This document shows positions 12,441 through 20,213 of a DNA stretch of 35,686 bases, piece after piece (position 1 is the stretch's first letter; each line of letters begins with the position of its first letter). Under the pieces are notes generated by a model that was given only the letters and a program-made list of their open reading frames with translations, was not told the DNA's origin and did no database searches. Source of the stretch: a virus (Duplodnaviria; Heunggongvirae; Uroviricota; Caudoviricetes); IMG/VR virus record IMGVR_UViG_2923302340_000008. One strand, given 5' to 3'. Position numbers and translations under genes: made by a program.

Positions 12441-12457
12441 TTTTGTGGAGTAAGTTG

Positions 12458-12835
12458 ATGCGTGATATTCAGATGGTTCTTGAGCGTTGGGGGGCATGGG
12501 CGGCTAATAATCATGAAGATGTGACCTGGTCGTCCATTGCCGCCGGTTTTAAGGGATTAATTCCTTCAAAAGTAAGATCTCGTCCGCAATGCTGTGACGA
12601 TGACGCGATGATCATTTGTGAATGTATGGCTCGCCTGAAAAAAAACAACAGCGATTTACATGATTTATTGGTGGACTATTATGTCGGCGGCATGACTTTT
12701 ATGGCGCTTGCACGTAAGCATGGGCGATCTGATTGTTGGGTTGGCAGGATGCTCCAGAAAGCTGAGGGCGTAGTGGAGGGCATGCTGATGGTGTTGGATC
12801 TCCGATTGGAGATGGATGCTGATTGTTCGAAATAA
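12458..12835 (+). CDS. Putative late-gene antiterminator Q
   Basis: 125-aa ORF ([21 protein letters not shown]…) with a Cys cluster. It sits at the Q position and is followed by a promoter-like sequence and a strong terminator. Confidence 0.55.
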
Positions 12836-14759: not shown

Positions 14760-15665
14760 CTATATTTCCAGACATCTGTTATCACTTAACCCATTACAGG
14801 CCCGCTGCCGCAGATATTCCCGTGGCGAGCGATAACCCAGCGCACTATGCGGATGCCATTCGTTATAATGCTCGAACGCCTCTGCAAGGTTCTTTGCTGC
14901 CGTTAACCCGTCTGGTTTGGGCATGATACTGATGTAGTCACGCTTTATCGTTTTCACGAAGCTCTCTGCTATTCCGTTACTCTCCGGACTCCGCACCGCC
15001 GTGTTCTTCGGTTCAAGTCCCAACATCCGGGCGAACTGGCGTGTTTCATTAGCCCGGTAGCATGAACCATTATCCGTCAGCCACTCCACTGGAGACGACG
15101 GAAGATCGTTGCCGAAGCGGCGTTCCACCGCTCCCAGCATGACGTCCTGTACTGTTTCACTGTTGAAGCCGCCAGTAGTCACCGCCCAGTGCAGTGCCTC
15201 ACGATCACTGCAGTCCAGCGCGAACGTGACACGCAGTCTCTCTCCGTTATCACAGCAGAACTCGAACCCGTCAGAGCACCATCGCTGATTGCTTTCTTTC
15301 ACGGCCACTCTGCCTGTATGTGCCCGTTTCGATGGCGGTACAGCAGGTTTTCGCTCAAGCAACAGCGCATTCTGGCGCATGATCCGGTAAACACGTTTGG
15401 CATTGATCGCAGGCATACCATCAAGTTCTGCCTGTCTGCGAAGCAGCGCCCATACCCGACGATAACCATACGTGGGCAGCTCTCCGATAACATGGTGTAT
15501 ACGGAGAAGCACATCCGTATCATCAGTGTGACGACTGCGGCGGCCATCCATCCAGTCATCGGTTCGTCTGAGAATGACGTGCAACTGCGCACGCGACACC
15601 CGGAGACAACGGCTGACTAAGCTTACTCCCCATCCCCGGGCAATAAGGGCGCGTGCGCTATCCAC
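14760..15665 (-). CDS. insD: IS2 transposase InsD (OrfB)
   Basis: 301-aa product [23 protein letters not shown]… matches recalled IS2 InsD. DDE integrase core. Confidence 0.9.
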
Positions 15666-15988
15666 TTTTTTGCCCGTCCATATTCAACGGCTTCTTTGAG
15701 GAGTTCATTTTCCATCGTTTTCTTGCCGAGCAGGCGCTGGAGTTCTTTAATCTGCTTCATGGCGGCAGCAAGTTCAGAGGCAGGAACAACCTGTTCTCCG
15801 GCGGCGACAGCAGTAAGACTTCCTTCCTGGTATTGCTTACGCCAGAGAAATAACTGGCTGGCTGCTACACCATGTTGCCGGGCAACGAGGGAGACCGTCA
15901 TCCCCGGTTCAAAGCTCTGCTGAACAATTGCGATCTTTTCCTGTGTGGTACGCCGTCTGCGTTTCTCCGGCCCTAAGACATCAATCAT
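15623..15988 (-). CDS. insC: IS2 InsC (OrfA)
   Basis: 121-aa product [24 protein letters not shown]… matches recalled IS2 InsC. It overlaps the insD start, as expected for a frameshift fusion. Confidence 0.85.
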
Positions 15989-16400
15989 CTGTTCTCCAAT
16001 GACTAGTCTAAAAACTAGTATTAAGACTATCACTTATTTAAGTGATACTGGTTGTCTGGAGATTCAGGGGGCCAGTCTACCCATAGTGTCAGTTTGTATA
16101 AAAATCCTGTTCACGCTAAAGAAAACATTGAGATGCAATTTAATGTTGGTAAACATACCAGCCCCAAAAGATTTTATTCAATCTGTTTTTATATGAAGAT
16201 ATTTCAAGTGAATATTAAGAGCATATAATATTATTATTGCACGCAGCTATTATAATATAACAGATTAGTTTAATGATTTGTTTTTTGTGAGTTAAACACA
16301 TGGTTTTATAGTTGTGATGCAATGAGATTTTCCTTATTGTTGAACTGGCGAATATTGATTTTCCACCTATACTTACCTGGTGTAACCCCAATGATATCAG

Positions 16401-17123
16401 GTGGATAATATGCCATACATATGTTCTATCATTTTGGTGTTGAACTCGTTTGGTGTCCGAATTGGTAAAGAAGATATTTTGTTTAAAAAAGGAAATGCTG
16501 TCCTCATTGAATACAATTTAAAAGATCTTTTTTCGTCAAATACAGATCATCTAATGATCGTAGATGTTGAGGAGAAAACAGTTAATGATTTCTTTAAAAA
16601 CTACACACTCTCACCTTTTTCTGTAAGAAGGTTTTATCCGTCATACTTGATAGTAGAATGTGAAGATTTTTCATTGTTAAGGAACTTGGTTGCATGCTTG
16701 AATTGTGATAGCAAAACCGTGGATGTAGTTAGAAATCAAATATCACTTGCATGTCTTGCTGTCTTATCTTCAGAGAAAATAGTGCAAAGTTTTTTGTTCG
16801 GAAGTCTTAATAGCTTAGGTTGTAAAGTTAAGGCTATTATTCACTCGGATATCTCAGCGTCATGGAGACTTTGTGATATATCTTCAAGATTATATATGAG
16901 CGAGAGTTTGTTAAAAAGAAAATTAAAAGACGAAGGATTATCGTTTAGTAAATTAATTCTTGAAGAACGAATGATGATGGCGCAAAGATTATTGATCTAC
17001 AGTAACCATACTGTCGGCAAGGTGGCGGGAATATGCGGGTATGACAATGCATCATATTTTGTAAGTGTTTTTAGAGGATATTTTGGTGTGCCTCCGCACC
17101 AATATTTATCAAGATTTTCTTAG
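16401..17123 (+). CDS. AraC/XylS-family transcriptional regulator (AppY/PatE-like)
   Basis: 240-aa ORF in a strongly AT-rich segment. The C-terminus carries an AraC-type HTH (…KVAGICGYDNASYFVSVFRGYFGVPPHQY). Confidence 0.75.
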   Translation: MDNMPYICSIILVLNSFGVRIGKEDILFKKGNAVLIEYNLKDLFSSNTDHLMIVDVEEKTVNDFFKNYTLSPFSVRRFYPSYLIVECEDFSLLRNLVACLNCDSKTVDVVRNQISLACLAVLSSEKIVQSFLFGSLNSLGCKVKAIIHSDISASWRLCDISSRLYMSESLLKRKLKDEGLSFSKLILEERMMMAQRLLIYSNHTVGKVAGICGYDNASYFVSVFRGYFGVPPHQYLSRFS

Positions 17124-17313
17124 AAGATATGATGTGATGGCATTTTATAAAGTTATTTTTTGAAGTGTAAGATTATACGATATTTTTAGCTACGCCAGAA
17201 TAATTGCTGGCGTTTTTCTTTTTGAATAGATGTTCGGGCCTTACGCTAATGTAACTTCTTTCCTTCTTCGAACCAAACCGTGTACACCATCCGTTATCTG
17301 CGGAGGTGAGGCT

Positions 17314-17529
17314 ATGAAATCCATGGATAAGTTAACAACGGGCATCGCCTACAGCACCTCTGCAGGCAGTGCTGGCTACTGGTTTTTACAGTTGCTCGAT
17401 AAAGTCACGCCCTCACAGTGGGCGGCAATAGGTGTATTGGGTAGTCTGGTATTTGGCATGCCGACGTATCTGACAAACCTTTATTTCAAGATTAAAGAAG
17501 ACAGGCGTAAGGTTGCGAGAAGAGAGTAA
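17314..17529 (+). CDS. Class II holin (S21-like pinholin)
   Basis: 71-aa product with dual start MKSM and motif [15 protein letters not shown]…[13 protein letters not shown]…[15 protein letters not shown] resembling recalled S21. GGAGG RBS. Confidence 0.8.
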
Positions 17530-17533
17530 TCCA

Positions 17534-18085
17534 ATGACTCAAGACTATGAACTGGTTGTGAAAGGAGTTCGCAATTTTGAGAATAAAGTGGCGGTAACTG
17601 TAGCCTTACGGGACAAAAAACACTTTGACGGTGAAATTTTTGACCTGGACATCTCGCTGGACCGTGTTGAAGGTGCCGCGCTGGAGTTTTATGAGGCAGC
17701 AGCCAGAAGGAGCATCAGACAGGTCTTCCTGGATGTTGCTGCCGGGTTATGTGAAGGGGATGAGCAGTCGCCGGAAAAGCGCCCCATAATTTTAGAGGCG
17801 CAGAATGTGTGGATAACCTACAAAGGAAAGCTACCGGGAAGAATTACTGGTTCTCTGAAGACGCCACCGACGGCATTGCGGTCAGAAAAAGATGATATTG
17901 AATCGCCCATTGAAAAACTGGAGGGCAGCGTCGCTGATCTGAATAAAAAATTGTCGGTGCTGATTCCTTCTGAAGATGAAAAAAAACGCCGCGATGAGCA
18001 GTTTGCGGCGTTTTACGATTATTGCATTGAAGTTACTCGCAGGAATTTTGTGAAGATTTTTGAGGAGGGTAAATCTCTTCAGTAA
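17534..18085 (+). CDS. Hypothetical protein between holin and endolysin
   Basis: 183-aa acidic ORF at the position Qin ydfR occupies. Weak RBS. Family unknown. Confidence 0.45.
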   Translation: MTQDYELVVKGVRNFENKVAVTVALRDKKHFDGEIFDLDISLDRVEGAALEFYEAAARRSIRQVFLDVAAGLCEGDEQSPEKRPIILEAQNVWITYKGKLPGRITGSLKTPPTALRSEKDDIESPIEKLEGSVADLNKKLSVLIPSEDEKKRRDEQFAAFYDYCIEVTRRNFVKIFEEGKSLQ

Positions 18086-18293
18086 GCTTATTGGCGGACG
18101 CTGCAATTAATTCAGGAAGGTCCGCAAGGTCATCTGTCAGTGGATATGATGAAAAATCGGCGGCAGTTCTGTTAAGAAGCGCTTTAACTAATTCCTTTTC
18201 CTTCTCCGGCAACAAGTTGATTAGAGCTACGACTGCTTGCCTGAGTGCGATTAAATCAGCAAAAGTTTGTTTAGGTAGATTTGTGTAATCCAT
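18033..18293 (-). CDS. Hypothetical small acidic protein (opposite strand within lysis cassette)
   Basis: 86-aa ORF with a GAGG RBS about 5 nt upstream. It is convergent with the upstream ORF. Confidence 0.3.
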   Translation of the reverse strand: MDYTNLPKQTFADLIALRQAVVALINLLPEKEKELVKALLNRTAADFSSYPLTDDLADLPELIAASANKLTEEIYPPQKSSQNSCE

Positions 18294-18405
18294 AGTCGCC
18301 TCTGTGTTTATCAGATTGACTCCTCCTCCCGCCAGTGCCCATCACTGGTGAGGTAAGATTTAACATATCCGGGGATTTGAAGCCGATAAATCCTGATAAA
18401 TATCC

Positions 18406-19433
<1,028 letters not shown>

Positions 19434-19793
19434 ATTAATATTAAATCGGATTATTTTTAGCGCTGAATGTGAAATTTAAATAAAAAGGACTCTTCCATGA
19501 GTCAAAATCCTTGAAATCTTAAGGGTAAGATAAAAGGTCATTAGACAGAATGACACGTTTTATTAATAAATAAAGCTATTGTTTCATTCGTGTGTTTTTC
19601 TTTACAAAAGTAATCCTTGCTATGGTTGGTTAATCATGCGTTAATGGTGTTCTGGTTTGTTACAAAATTATCTGAAGCAGTCATTGTTATAATTTTATTA
19701 TTTGTACCTCTTGAGATTTCCTTGTTGGTTTTTCTCTCTGATATTTTTTTTCGGACCATTCTGCCCAAGGGCTAACTTCTTCAAAAGGTAATA

Positions 19794-20009
19794 ATGATGT
19801 CTAACAAAATGACTGGTTTAGTGAAATGGTTTAACCCTGAAAAAGGTTTTGGTTTCATCACGCCGAAAGATGGTAGCAAAGATGTGTTTGTCCATTTCTC
19901 AGCTATTCAGAGCAACGATTTCAAAACGTTAACTGAGAATCAGGAAGTCGAATTTGGTATTGAGAACGGACCTAAAGGCCCCGCGGCTGTTCATGTTGTG
20001 GCACTTTGA
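19794..20009 (+). CDS. Cold-shock protein (CspB/CspI-like)
   Basis: [38 protein letters not shown]… carries RNP1/RNP2 cold-shock-domain motifs. A long AT-rich 5' leader precedes it. Confidence 0.9.
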
Positions 20010-20213
20010 GGTAGAAAATATTACAAACCATATTCACTTTAGATGCCCGTGTTGCCATGGTTCTCAGTATAGAACATCATCTTTTGATGTTTCTGACAGG
20101 AATCCTTTCGGGGCAAAATGTATCTTTTGTAAATCAATGATGATTACATTTGATAATATTTCACAATACTTAAATGTTAGCCGTCTATCGTTAGATTTAA
20201 GAAAGTGAAAATG

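What the first reader, a model, noticed from the sequence alone, without database searches (positions are those of the whole stretch)
17534..18293. Extra genes inside the lysis cassette between holin and endolysin, including a convergent small ORF
A 183-aa acidic ORF follows the S21-like holin, and an 86-aa minus-strand ORF with a GAGG RBS lies between it and the SAR endolysin. Lambda and phage 21 have no genes here; Qin has ydfR at this spot. A convergent gene inside a late operon suggests an independently regulated moron or a transcription-interference element affecting lysis timing.
Basis: inference. Interest (0 to 1): 0.35.

Follow-up and report, generated by a model that had tools for sequence, protein, structure and literature searches.

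The report
Backward-facing small gene in lysis cassette
Between the hole-forming and wall-cutting genes of a defective E. coli prophage lie two real genes of unknown function, both already listed in databases: a long YdfR protein and a small gene on the opposite strand that always travels with YdfR's tail as a mobile two-part insert; this is a modest curiosity rather than a new kind of system.

Summary
Window 17534-18085 (+) is an open 183-codon YdfR/DUF1327 gene that starts 4 nt after an S21-type holin. Window 18293-18033 (-) is an 86-codon ORF with a GAGG Shine-Dalgarno, convergent on it with a 53-nt overlap, upstream of the SAR endolysin.

Both are already catalogued (RefSeq 'YdfR family' and 'hypothetical protein'; PHROG 2091 and 2572). 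The cassette is 99.8% identical to Qin-like prophages of E. coli HS and related strains, and 313 of 5426 complete E. coli genomes carry the ORF86 segment.

ORF86 is very probably a real gene. Relatives at 38-55% identity keep the length, the start codon, the Shine-Dalgarno and the best protein-level conservation in that frame.

The conserved unit is not 'YdfR + ORF86'. It is a roughly 70-aa helical tail plus ORF86, always convergent and overlapping by 53-59 nt, with a hairpin about 20 nt after the ORF86 stop. The tail can be fused to DUF1327, fused to other N-termini, or stand alone after Rz in Salmonella prophages whose holin and endolysin are unrelated.

This fits a moron-like mobile insert: low GC, its own ribosome site, a terminator-like hairpin. 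It argues against a role tied to S21/SAR lysis timing. No strong promoter was found and no function could be assigned.

The parts
17192..17213 (+). Intrinsic-terminator-like hairpin plus T-run after the AraC-like gene, directly upstream of the holin (context)
   Evidence: 7-bp stem with 5 G-C pairs, followed by TTTTTCTTTTT.
17314..17529 (+). S21-type class II holin (essQ-like), 71 aa, with an MKSM dual-start motif
   Evidence: PF04971, 4.6e-33. PHROG holin families. Annotated essQ in E. coli HS.
17534..17869 (+). N-terminal DUF1327 domain (residues 1-112) of the long YdfR-family protein
   Evidence: PF07041, 143.4 bits, residues 1-112. AF2 model gives three strands and a helix at pLDDT 60-80. 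The homologous part of K-12 YdfR (residues 1-72) binds the RNase E catalytic half (PMC13232886).
17870..18085 (+). Helical tail (residues 113-183) of the 183-aa protein; the first half of the mobile tail+ORF86 module
   Evidence: Absent from the 103-116-aa YdfR forms and differs in the 268/296-aa forms. Homologous to a stand-alone 73-aa gene and to the C-termini of 116-, 144-, 174- and 243-aa proteins that all face an ORF86 homologue. Predicted helical hairpin 125-182. GC 0.42.
17979..18014 (-). Hairpin AAAACGCCGC / 12-nt loop / GCGGCGTTTT followed by more T (T8 in all on the minus strand); terminator-like, 18 nt after the ORF86 stop, inside ydfR codons KKRRDEQFAAF
   Evidence: The left arm is missing from the 296-aa YdfR form, which has no ORF86. 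The core 8 bp pair in all five distinct sequences from the three subfamilies, with one G:C->A:U double change that is not statistically significant. The T-run is present only in the window's subfamily.
18033..18293 (-). ORF86: an 86-aa acidic (pI 4.57) predicted three-helix protein, PHROG 2572, 'hypothetical protein' WP_001557934.1
18033..18085 (.). 53-nt convergent overlap of the two coding regions
   Evidence: The overlap is 53 nt in the window's subfamily and 59 nt in the two divergent subfamilies.
18299..18302 (-). GAGG Shine-Dalgarno, 5 nt upstream of the ORF86 ATG
   Evidence: The divergent subfamilies have AAGGA at a comparable distance.
18362..18390 (-). Only sigma-70-like candidate promoter for ORF86: TTTATC, 17-nt spacer, TATGTT (7/12); uncertain
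   Evidence: The hexamers and the 17-nt spacing recur in all three subfamilies while the spacer varies. However, 46 nt of this stretch also precede the endolysin in Stx phages that lack ORF86, so it may instead be the endolysin leader or a mosaic boundary.
18406..18939 (+). SAR-type lysozyme (rrrQ-like); no Shine-Dalgarno, A/T-rich leader (context)
   Evidence: PF00959. Annotated rrrQ. Leader sequence.
18936..19433 (+). Rz-like spanin (DUF2514) with an embedded lipoprotein frame (context)
   Evidence: PF10721, 1.9e-38, and PHROG 312. Embedded ORF 19087-19383.

Best explanation
The interval holds two real protein-coding genes that together form a mosaic insertion in the pinholin/SAR-endolysin lysis cassette of a Qin-like defective lambdoid prophage of E. 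coli.

**Gene 1 (17534-18085, +)** is an in-line late-operon gene of the YdfR family. It combines a DUF1327 N-domain with a roughly 70-aa helical tail. In K-12 YdfR the N-domain binds the catalytic half of RNase E and co-purifies with RNA.

**Gene 2 (ORF86, 18293-18033, -)** encodes a small acidic protein of three predicted helices, with no convincing membrane-spanning segment.

**Shown here:**
- The unit that is conserved and that moves between phages is 'tail + ORF86'.
- In every locus examined, across three subfamilies down to 38% identity, the two parts are convergent. They overlap by 53-59 nt and have a hairpin about 20 nt past the ORF86 stop.
- The tail may be fused to DUF1327, fused to other proteins, or stand alone after Rz.

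**Inferred:**
- ORF86 is a moron-type gene, translated from its own Shine-Dalgarno and ended by the hairpin (a good intrinsic terminator here: 10-bp stem plus T8).
- It is transcribed against the late operon from a weak or factor-dependent promoter in the 112-nt spacer, so it would be expressed when late transcription is off.
- Because the late transcript is fully complementary to the ORF86 mRNA, the two partners would be expressed reciprocally.
- The persistent pairing suggests the ORF86 protein acts on or with the tail.

The cargo function is unknown. It is not a core lysis function.
For: **Gene identities:**

**ORF86 is a real gene:**
- HMMER against 1.84 billion representatives, plus a profile search, finds 89-93-aa relatives at 38-55% identity. 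All fall in PHROG 2572.
- The sense frame has the best BLOSUM62 score in all three cross-subfamily comparisons: 160, 148 and 207, against 143, 95 and 152 for the wobble-sharing antisense frame.
- The start codon and Shine-Dalgarno are conserved.
- The frame is open in 90/91 loci, like the lysis genes themselves.
- Viable phages carry it: PhiR63_1, 2H10, PhiR5_1 and the PhiR12 series.

**Module architecture:**

**Insert character:**
- DNA alignment shows the 296-aa form diverging at about 18040 and lacking the 15-nt left arm of the hairpin.
- mEp460 has only a 55-nt spacer between ydfR and the lysozyme gene.
- GC is 0.41-0.42 against 0.47-0.52 in the neighbours.

**Hairpin:**

**RNase E binding by the YdfR N-domain:** PMC13232886.
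Against: - No strong promoter: the consensus scan finds none upstream of ORF86, and the best relaxed match is 7/12. The conserved upstream element is shared with phages that lack ORF86.
- The T-run after the hairpin is absent in the two divergent subfamilies. Hairpin covariation is a single event and does not exceed the shuffles. The stem could be conserved simply because it encodes the KRRDE..AA motif of the tail.
- Within the window's subfamily, dN/dS is only 0.33-0.76 on 10-17 substitutions and cannot separate the two strands.
- 7 of 95 loci have lost the ATG and 1 has a nonsense codon.
- Structure models are of low to moderate confidence (pLDDT 68 and 54) and give no informative fold match.
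- There are no expression data, and no test of an ORF86-tail interaction was possible.
Confidence: 0.5

Rival explanations
1. The function lies at the RNA level. The minus-strand transcript, or the act of transcribing it, is an antisense or transcription-interference element, and the ORF86 peptide is secondary. It would pair with the 3' end of the ydfR message and with any unmodified read-through transcript. Together with the hairpin, it would keep leaky transcription from reaching the holin-independent SAR endolysin in the lysogen, or it would tune expression of the tail.
For: - The convergent 3' overlap of 53-59 nt plus a hairpin is the most invariant feature of the module.
- With the terminator at 17979-18014, about 100 nt of the two mRNAs would be complementary.
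- The hairpin has an A-run on one side and a T-run on the other, like a bidirectional terminator.
- The C-terminal roughly 15 residues of ORF86, encoded in the overlap, are low-complexity and vary between subfamilies, while the partner's end is better conserved.
Against: - The first 55 residues of ORF86 are conserved at the protein level across 38-55%-identity relatives, with a kept Shine-Dalgarno and start. That points to a functional protein.
- In Salmonella prophages the module lies after Rz, where no lysis gene is downstream to be shielded.
- The candidate TSS lies upstream of the endolysin start, so the RNA would not cover the endolysin ribosome site.
- No promoter has been demonstrated.
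Confidence: 0.15
2. Tail and ORF86 form a two-protein accessory system of the kind prophages carry for the host: defence, anti-defence, exclusion, or a toxin-antidote pair. One partner would be made in the lysogen and the other late.
For: - The pairing is strict across subfamilies and genomic positions.
- The module sits in the Q-to-terminase moron hot spot, including the position between Rz and the terminase genes, which is where lambda carries bor on the opposite strand (own knowledge).
- ORF86 is small, acidic and helical.
- There is a weak, non-significant sequence resemblance to the anti-CRISPR AcrIIC4 (E 0.12).
Against: - No PADLOC match for either protein.
- hhalign gives only 9% probability for AcrIIC4, and Foldseek did not return it.
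- Known protein toxin-antidote pairs are co-directional operons (own knowledge).
- When fused to DUF1327 the tail is part of a late structural-operon protein, which is an odd place for a toxin.
Confidence: 0.15
3. The extra genes regulate lysis timing of the S21 pinholin / SAR endolysin system, acting like an antiholin or an endolysin regulator.
For: - In the window the genes lie between the holin and the endolysin.
- ydfR mutants were reported among envelope-leaky mutants in a genome-wide screen, as cited in PMC13232886.
- ORF86 helix 1 is nearly as hydrophobic as the SAR domain: Kyte-Doolittle 19-residue maximum 1.62 against 1.72.
Against: - The module also occurs with Phage_holin_8 / Phage_holin_3_7 holins and a GH19 endolysin, and outside the holin-endolysin gap.
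- Most S21-type cassettes lack it, and only 313 of 5426 genomes carry it.
- Neither protein has a signal peptide or a convincing membrane-spanning segment. The hydrophobic 19-mer of ORF86 contains conserved D13, R18, Q19 and N26.
- The holin already carries its own dual-start antiholin motif.
Confidence: 0.07
4. ORF86 is not a functional gene. It would be a shadow ORF or a decaying relic that hitch-hikes on a recently spread DNA segment.
For: - Within the window's subfamily, sequences are 93.5-100% identical and the codon-position pattern cannot separate the strands.
- The + strand frame 18091-18288 is also open.
- Some loci have lost the start or gained a stop.
- No promoter was found.
- The family is confined to Escherichia, Shigella and Salmonella phages: 1 of 185,579 species-representative genomes.
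Against: - Three divergent subfamilies keep an 86-93-codon frame, the start and the Shine-Dalgarno. The sense frame scores best at the protein level.
- The antisense frame has no conserved start or ribosome site.
- The frame is as intact as those of the lysis genes.
Confidence: 0.1

Closest known systems
YdfR (b1555) of the E. coli K-12 Qin prophage; Pfam DUF1327 (PF07041)
   Same: Same position directly after an S21-type holin and before the lysozyme gene. The N-terminal 112 residues match at 143 bits. That region of K-12 YdfR binds the RNase E catalytic domain (PMC13232886).
   Different: K-12 YdfR is 103 aa and ends where the window protein continues into a 70-aa helical tail. K-12-type and mEp460-type cassettes have no minus-strand gene.
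Lambda bor, and morons in general (own knowledge: Hendrix/Juhala definition; bor lies on the opposite strand next to Rz and is expressed in lysogens)
   Same: A small gene on the strand opposite to the late operon, beside the lysis genes. It is inserted relative to related phages, has its own ribosome site and a terminator-like hairpin, and has lower GC. In Salmonella prophages the ORF86 homologue lies between Rz and the terminase genes, the position bor occupies in lambda (own knowledge).
   Different: Bor is a lipoprotein with a proven promoter and phenotype. ORF86 has no signal sequence, has no demonstrated promoter, overlaps its neighbour by 53-59 nt, and always comes with a partner domain.
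Convergent 3'-overlapping sense/antisense pairs: lambda oop-cII, and type I toxin-antitoxin loci such as txpA/RatA, bsrG/SR4 and par (fst/RNAII) (own knowledge)
   Same: Convergent transcription units whose 3' ends overlap by tens of nucleotides around a shared hairpin. They are often found on prophages.
   Different: Here both partners encode hydrophilic proteins of 70-90 aa or more. There is no small hydrophobic toxin and no evidence of RNA-level control.
Accessory lysis regulators encoded inside lysis cassettes: P1 LydB, T4 RI/RIII, and the phage Mu endolysin regulators (PMC9239132, listed; otherwise own knowledge)
   Same: Extra genes placed among the holin, endolysin and spanin genes.
   Different: Those lie on the same strand and act at or in the membrane or periplasm. 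YdfR and ORF86 lack targeting signals, and the module is not tied to one lysis-gene type.
Phage-encoded RNase E binders such as phiKZ Dip (own knowledge)
   Same: If the K-12 result carries over, a phage late protein that binds RNase E.
   Different: There is no sequence or fold relation. The effect of YdfR on RNase E activity is unknown, and its overproduction changed few transcripts (PMC13232886).

Membership tests
YdfR / DUF1327 (PF07041) | Match to the Pfam model above the gathering score (25 bits) | tested here: met
   143.4 bits, E 2.6e-42, residues 1-112.
YdfR / DUF1327 (PF07041) | Gene placed between an S21-type holin and a lysozyme in a lambdoid late operon | tested here: met
YdfR / DUF1327 (PF07041) | Binding to the RNase E N-terminal catalytic half (the only reported activity) | not testable with these tools
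   Reported for K-12 YdfR residues 1-72 (PMC13232886). The window protein is 86-92% identical to the short YdfR forms over this part.
PHROG 2572 (unknown function) | Full-length match to the family profile | tested here: met
   178.3 bits, positions 1-86 of 86. The divergent relatives P0139, P0141 and P0167 match the same profile.
Moron (independent transcription unit inserted in a phage operon) | Present between genes that are adjacent in related phages | tested here: met
   Absent from mEp460, from the 296-aa YdfR loci, and from most of the 5162 genomes that match the cassette.
Moron (independent transcription unit inserted in a phage operon) | Own terminator | tested here: inconclusive
   A 10-bp stem plus T8 lies 18 nt after the stop in the window. 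The stem is kept in all subfamilies, but the T-run is not.
Moron (independent transcription unit inserted in a phage operon) | Own promoter | tested here: inconclusive
   The consensus scan finds none. There is one 7/12 candidate at a conserved position, but it is shared with phages that lack the gene.
Moron (independent transcription unit inserted in a phage operon) | Base composition different from the neighbours | tested here: met
   GC 0.41-0.42 against 0.47-0.52.
Moron (independent transcription unit inserted in a phage operon) | Expressed from the repressed prophage | not testable with these tools
   No expression data are available here. Carrier strains with public data are named.
Type I toxin-antitoxin with 3' overlap | Small hydrophobic membrane toxin plus a non-coding antisense RNA | tested here: not met
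   Both partners are hydrophilic proteins (GRAVY -0.20 and -0.75), and ORF86 is conserved as a protein.
Antiholin / membrane-acting lysis regulator | Transmembrane or secreted protein specific to the holin or endolysin type | tested here: not met
   No convincing membrane-spanning segment. The module occurs with unrelated holin and endolysin families.
AcrIIC4 anti-CRISPR | Significant sequence, profile or fold similarity | tested here: not met
   E 0.12 against PDB sequences. hhalign probability 9%. Not among the Foldseek hits.
DUF1823 (label used in the PhiR phage records) | Pfam match above the gathering score (25 bits) | tested here: not met
   12.9 bits, E 0.13.

The most novel reading that the evidence does not exclude
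Tail and ORF86 are a previously undescribed antisense-coupled two-protein switch carried by temperate enterobacterial phages. ORF86 would be made in the lysogen and the tail protein late, here fused to an RNase E-binding domain. Each message would silence the other through the conserved 3' overlap and hairpin. The ORF86 protein would neutralise or redirect the tail protein, giving the prophage control over host RNA decay, over abortive lysis, or over a superinfecting phage.
Probability: 0.1. Interest if true: 0.6.

Novelty: new member of a known kind. Interest (0 to 1): 0.3.

Why it matters
If ORF86 is expressed from the prophage, about 6% of sequenced E. coli carry an unstudied lysogen-expressed gene inside the lysis cassette. 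That includes laboratory strains: E. coli B REL606, ATCC 8739 and HS.

The gene is hard-wired, by a conserved convergent overlap, to a late protein that in this window carries an RNase E-binding domain. That would give an easy genetic handle on what YdfR-family proteins do. It would also add one more example of how morons are inserted against the late operon.

If it is not expressed, the finding is only a well-conserved mosaic block.

One practical point stands either way. PGAP marks the open 183-codon ydfR as a pseudogene, which is an annotation artefact.

Tried and rejected
1. **Codon-position and dN/dS test within the window's subfamily** (17 haplotypes, 10-17 differences). Omega is 0.33-0.76, but the + strand frame 18091-18288 shares the wobble positions, so the test cannot tell the strands apart. 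It was replaced by cross-subfamily protein scoring.
2. **The idea that ORF86 is the shadow of a longer + strand gene** (the 296-aa YdfR form would fill the gap). Rejected: the 296-aa C-terminal domain is unrelated DNA that replaces the module from about 18040.
4. **AcrIIC4 resemblance.** Not significant.
5. **Family libraries.** PADLOC, NCBIfam and Pfam give no match for ORF86, and 'DUF1823' is below threshold.
6. **The 975-aa TPR/CHAT protein hit (P0140).** This is repeat-driven chance similarity.
7. **Rfam.** No family in 17100-19600; only the cspA thermoregulator at 19639-20055.
8. **Hairpin covariation.** One compensatory pair, no better than the shuffles.
9. **Promoter.** The consensus scan is negative, and the conserved upstream element is ambiguous.
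10. **Literature.** Nothing on ORF86. The only functional paper on YdfR is PMC13232886.
11. **Species-representative genomes.** Only one E. coli record carries the family.
Full report
**What is there**

The window is a Qin-like defective lambdoid prophage of E. coli. The 1.75-kb stretch 17200-18950 is 99.8% identical to E. coli HS and many other strains. There it is annotated essQ (class II holin), 'YdfR family protein', 'hypothetical protein', rrrQ (lysozyme) and rzpQ.

In window coordinates the order is:
- Q antiterminator, 12443-12835
- lipocalin-like gene (-)
- YbgA-like gene
- an IS2-type element, about 14760-16033
- AraC-like regulator, 16401-17123
- terminator, 17192-17213
- S21-type holin, 17314-17529
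- the 183-aa ORF, 17534-18085
- the 86-aa minus-strand ORF, 18293-18033
- SAR-type lysozyme, 18406-18939
- Rz (DUF2514), 18936-19433
- cspI

The 183-aa protein is acidic (pI 5.18). ORF86 has GAGG 5 nt before its ATG, and the two ORFs converge with a 53-nt overlap.

**The plus-strand gene**

Residues 1-112 match DUF1327 (PF07041, 143 bits), and the whole protein matches PHROG 2091 end to end. The family is modular. Database relatives are 103-116 aa (N-domain only, as in K-12 and mEp460); 169, 176, 183 or 211 aa (N-domain plus a helical tail with in-frame insertions or deletions); or 268 or 296 aa (N-domain, part of the tail, then an unrelated C-terminal domain of about 120 aa).

PGAP marks the gene as a pseudogene 'missing C-terminus' in HS, PK5 and AS19. 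This is an artefact of model length. The frame is open for 183 codons, and the 183-aa form is the majority among related loci (66 of 87).

The one functional report is Gopel et al. 2026 (PMC13232886). K-12 YdfR binds the catalytic N-terminal half of RNase E through residues 1-72 and co-purifies with RNA. Its overproduction changes few transcripts.

**Is ORF86 a gene?**

It has no Pfam or NCBIfam match, but it matches PHROG 2572 over 86/86 positions. RefSeq lists it as hypothetical protein WP_001557934.1.

Within its own subfamily the evidence is weak. There are 95 loci and 17 haplotypes at 93.5-100% identity, and dN/dS is 0.33-0.76. A + strand frame (18091-18288) shares the same wobble positions, so codon patterns cannot tell the strands apart.

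The deciding evidence comes from distant relatives. A full HMMER scan of 1.84 billion representatives and a profile search found 89-93-aa proteins at 38-55% identity. These come from Salmonella prophages and from gut metagenome contigs.
- They keep the length, a start codon and a Shine-Dalgarno: AAGGA in place of GAGG.
- The minus-strand (sense) frame has the highest BLOSUM62 score in all three subfamily comparisons: 160, 148 and 207, against 143, 95 and 152 for the best antisense frame.
- The frame is open in 90/91 IMG/VR loci, the same rate as the holin (82/83) and the endolysin (86/87).
- Against this, 7 loci carry ATG->ACG, 1 a nonsense codon and 4 a lost stop.

I put the probability that ORF86 encodes a protein at about 0.85.

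The AF2 model (pLDDT 68) has three helices: 8-27, 30-48 and 56-74. The protein is acidic (pI 4.57). Its most hydrophobic 19-mer reaches 1.62 on the Kyte-Doolittle scale. That stretch contains conserved D13, R18, Q19 and N26, so a membrane span is unlikely.

**The unit of conservation**

In every locus examined, ORF86 or its homologue faces the 3' end of a late-strand gene, overlapping it by 53 nt (window subfamily) or 59 nt (the other two). The last 60-70 residues of that gene are homologous to the window's tail. The shared motifs are KRRDE or RQRHHE, then RNF.K or MKFLQ, then S.Q and the stop.

The partner varies:
- DUF1327 proteins of 169, 176, 183, 211 or 243 aa
- proteins of 116, 144 or 174 aa with other N-terminal sequence
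- a stand-alone 73-aa gene

In Salmonella prophages the stand-alone version sits after Rz and before the DUF1441/terminase genes. Those cassettes are built from Phage_holin_8, Phage_holin_3_7 and a GH19 endolysin. The same order, Rz then the 73-aa gene, recurs on the short contigs L102-L104. In lambda that position is occupied by bor (own knowledge).

So the mobile block is 'tail + ORF86', not 'YdfR + ORF86', and it is not tied to the S21/SAR lysis system.

DNA alignment supports an insert. The 296-aa form diverges from the window at about 18040. mEp460 has only a 55-nt spacer between ydfR and the lysozyme gene. The tail and ORF86 have GC 0.41-0.42, against 0.47-0.52 for their neighbours.

**Signals around ORF86**

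Eighteen nucleotides past its stop, on the minus strand, lies AAAACGCCGC, a 12-nt loop, then GCGGCGTTTT followed by four more T (17979-18014). It forms in the minimum-free-energy fold. The scan tool missed it because of its loop limit.

It lies inside ydfR codons KKRRDEQFAAF. The 296-aa form, which has no ORF86, lacks the 15-nt left arm. The 8-bp core pairs in all five distinct sequences from the three subfamilies, with one G:C to A:U double change. That does not exceed the shuffles, and the T-run is present only in the window's subfamily. So it is a good terminator here, but elsewhere perhaps only a stability or processing hairpin, or simply a by-product of the protein motif.

Upstream, the only sigma-70-like match is TTTATC (18390-18385), a 17-nt spacer, then TATGTT (18367-18362), scoring 7/12. 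The hexamers and the spacing recur in all three subfamilies while the spacer varies. However, 46 nt of this stretch also precede the endolysin in Stx1 phages that lack ORF86, and about 20 nt do so in mEp460. It may therefore be the A/T-rich leader of the endolysin, which has no Shine-Dalgarno, or a mosaic boundary. Independent transcription is therefore inferred, not shown.

**How it most likely works**

*Shown:* there are two real genes, a conserved convergent overlapping module, and an insert-like character.

*Inferred (about 0.5):* ORF86 is a moron-type gene transcribed against the late operon and ended at the hairpin. Q-modified late transcription, which must read through this stretch to reach the endolysin, produces RNA fully complementary to it. 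ORF86 and the tail protein would therefore be expressed reciprocally, and the invariable pairing suggests that their products act together.

*Rivals:* a purely RNA-level antisense or interference role (0.15); a defence, anti-defence or toxin-antidote-like pair (0.15); a non-functional relic (0.1); lysis-timing control (0.07). The last is disfavoured because of the module's other genomic contexts and the lack of membrane targeting.

**Comparison with what is known, and novelty**

YdfR family membership is met. ORF86 belongs to an existing PHROG of unknown function. By organisation the closest analogue is a moron such as lambda bor. The convergent 3' overlap with a shared hairpin recalls lambda oop-cII and the 3'-overlapping type I toxin-antitoxin loci, but their defining feature, a small hydrophobic toxin with a non-coding antitoxin RNA, is not met. 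The resemblance to AcrIIC4 and the 'DUF1823' label used in the PhiR phage records both failed testing.

The genes are already annotated. What is new is the recognition of the tail+ORF86 module and its mobility.

The module is in 313 of 5426 complete E. coli genomes, including REL606, ATCC 8739 and HS. It is also in viable phages (PhiR63_1, 2H10, PhiR5_1 and the PhiR12 series), but in only one of 185,579 species-representative genomes.

**Verdict:** a real, ordinary-looking accessory insert of unknown function. Interest 0.3.

Noticed in passing
window 14760-16033 (-): An IS2-type (IS3 family) insertion element lies between the YbgA-like gene and the AraC-like gene. It therefore sits between the Q antiterminator (12443-12835) and the lysis cassette. 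Related strains carry the IS at other positions, or carry an IS3 inside the cassette region.
   Followed up: partly
window 16401-17123 (+) and 17192-17213: An AraC-family regulator, most similar to YdeO, GadX and HilD but far below their NCBIfam cut-offs, sits directly upstream of the holin. It is followed by a strong terminator-like hairpin. This is another moron in the Q-to-holin gap.
   Followed up: partly
window 19639-20055 (+): Rfam cspA thermoregulator (RF01766, 109.8 bits), covering the leader and coding region of the cspI-like cold-shock gene just after Rz.
   Followed up: no
window 17534-18085; L001 4335-4670: RefSeq/PGAP annotates only the first 112 codons of this ydfR, and as a pseudogene 'missing C-terminus', in HS, PK5 and AS19. 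In fact the 183-codon frame is open and is the majority form.
   Followed up: yes
window 18355-18405 (+): The SAR endolysin has no Shine-Dalgarno. Its A/T-rich leader (GATAAATCCTGATAAATATCC before the ATG) is conserved in Stx1 phages and in mEp460. Copies of it travel with ORF86 homologues even where no endolysin follows (L102, L110).
   Followed up: partly
window 18091-18288 (+): A 65-codon shadow ORF (TTG start, no ribosome site) lies antisense to ORF86 and shares its wobble positions. It stays largely open in the divergent subfamilies as well, which defeats simple codon-position tests.
   Followed up: yes
P0067/L095 2501-3391; P0114, P0106: The 268- and 296-aa YdfR forms carry an unrelated C-terminal domain of about 120 aa (…ECNRPSFVV…GKITISENGK…) in place of the tail end plus ORF86. 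Its function is unknown, and the only match is a weak PADLOC PbeC hit (E 0.018).
   Followed up: no
window 18190-18210 (ORF86 codons 30-35): In-frame 6-nt length polymorphism in the EKEKEL repeat of ORF86: +EK in P0002 and -EK in P0004. Another variant (P0009) lacks two residues near position 65.
   Followed up: no
window 17314-17325: The holin begins MKSM, the dual-start (antiholin/holin) arrangement known from S21 (own knowledge of the motif).
   Followed up: no
L066-L072 (IMG/VR): Seven loci have ATG->ACG at the ORF86 start. In those loci gene callers extend the ORF upstream to a 127-aa product (P0003).
   Followed up: partly
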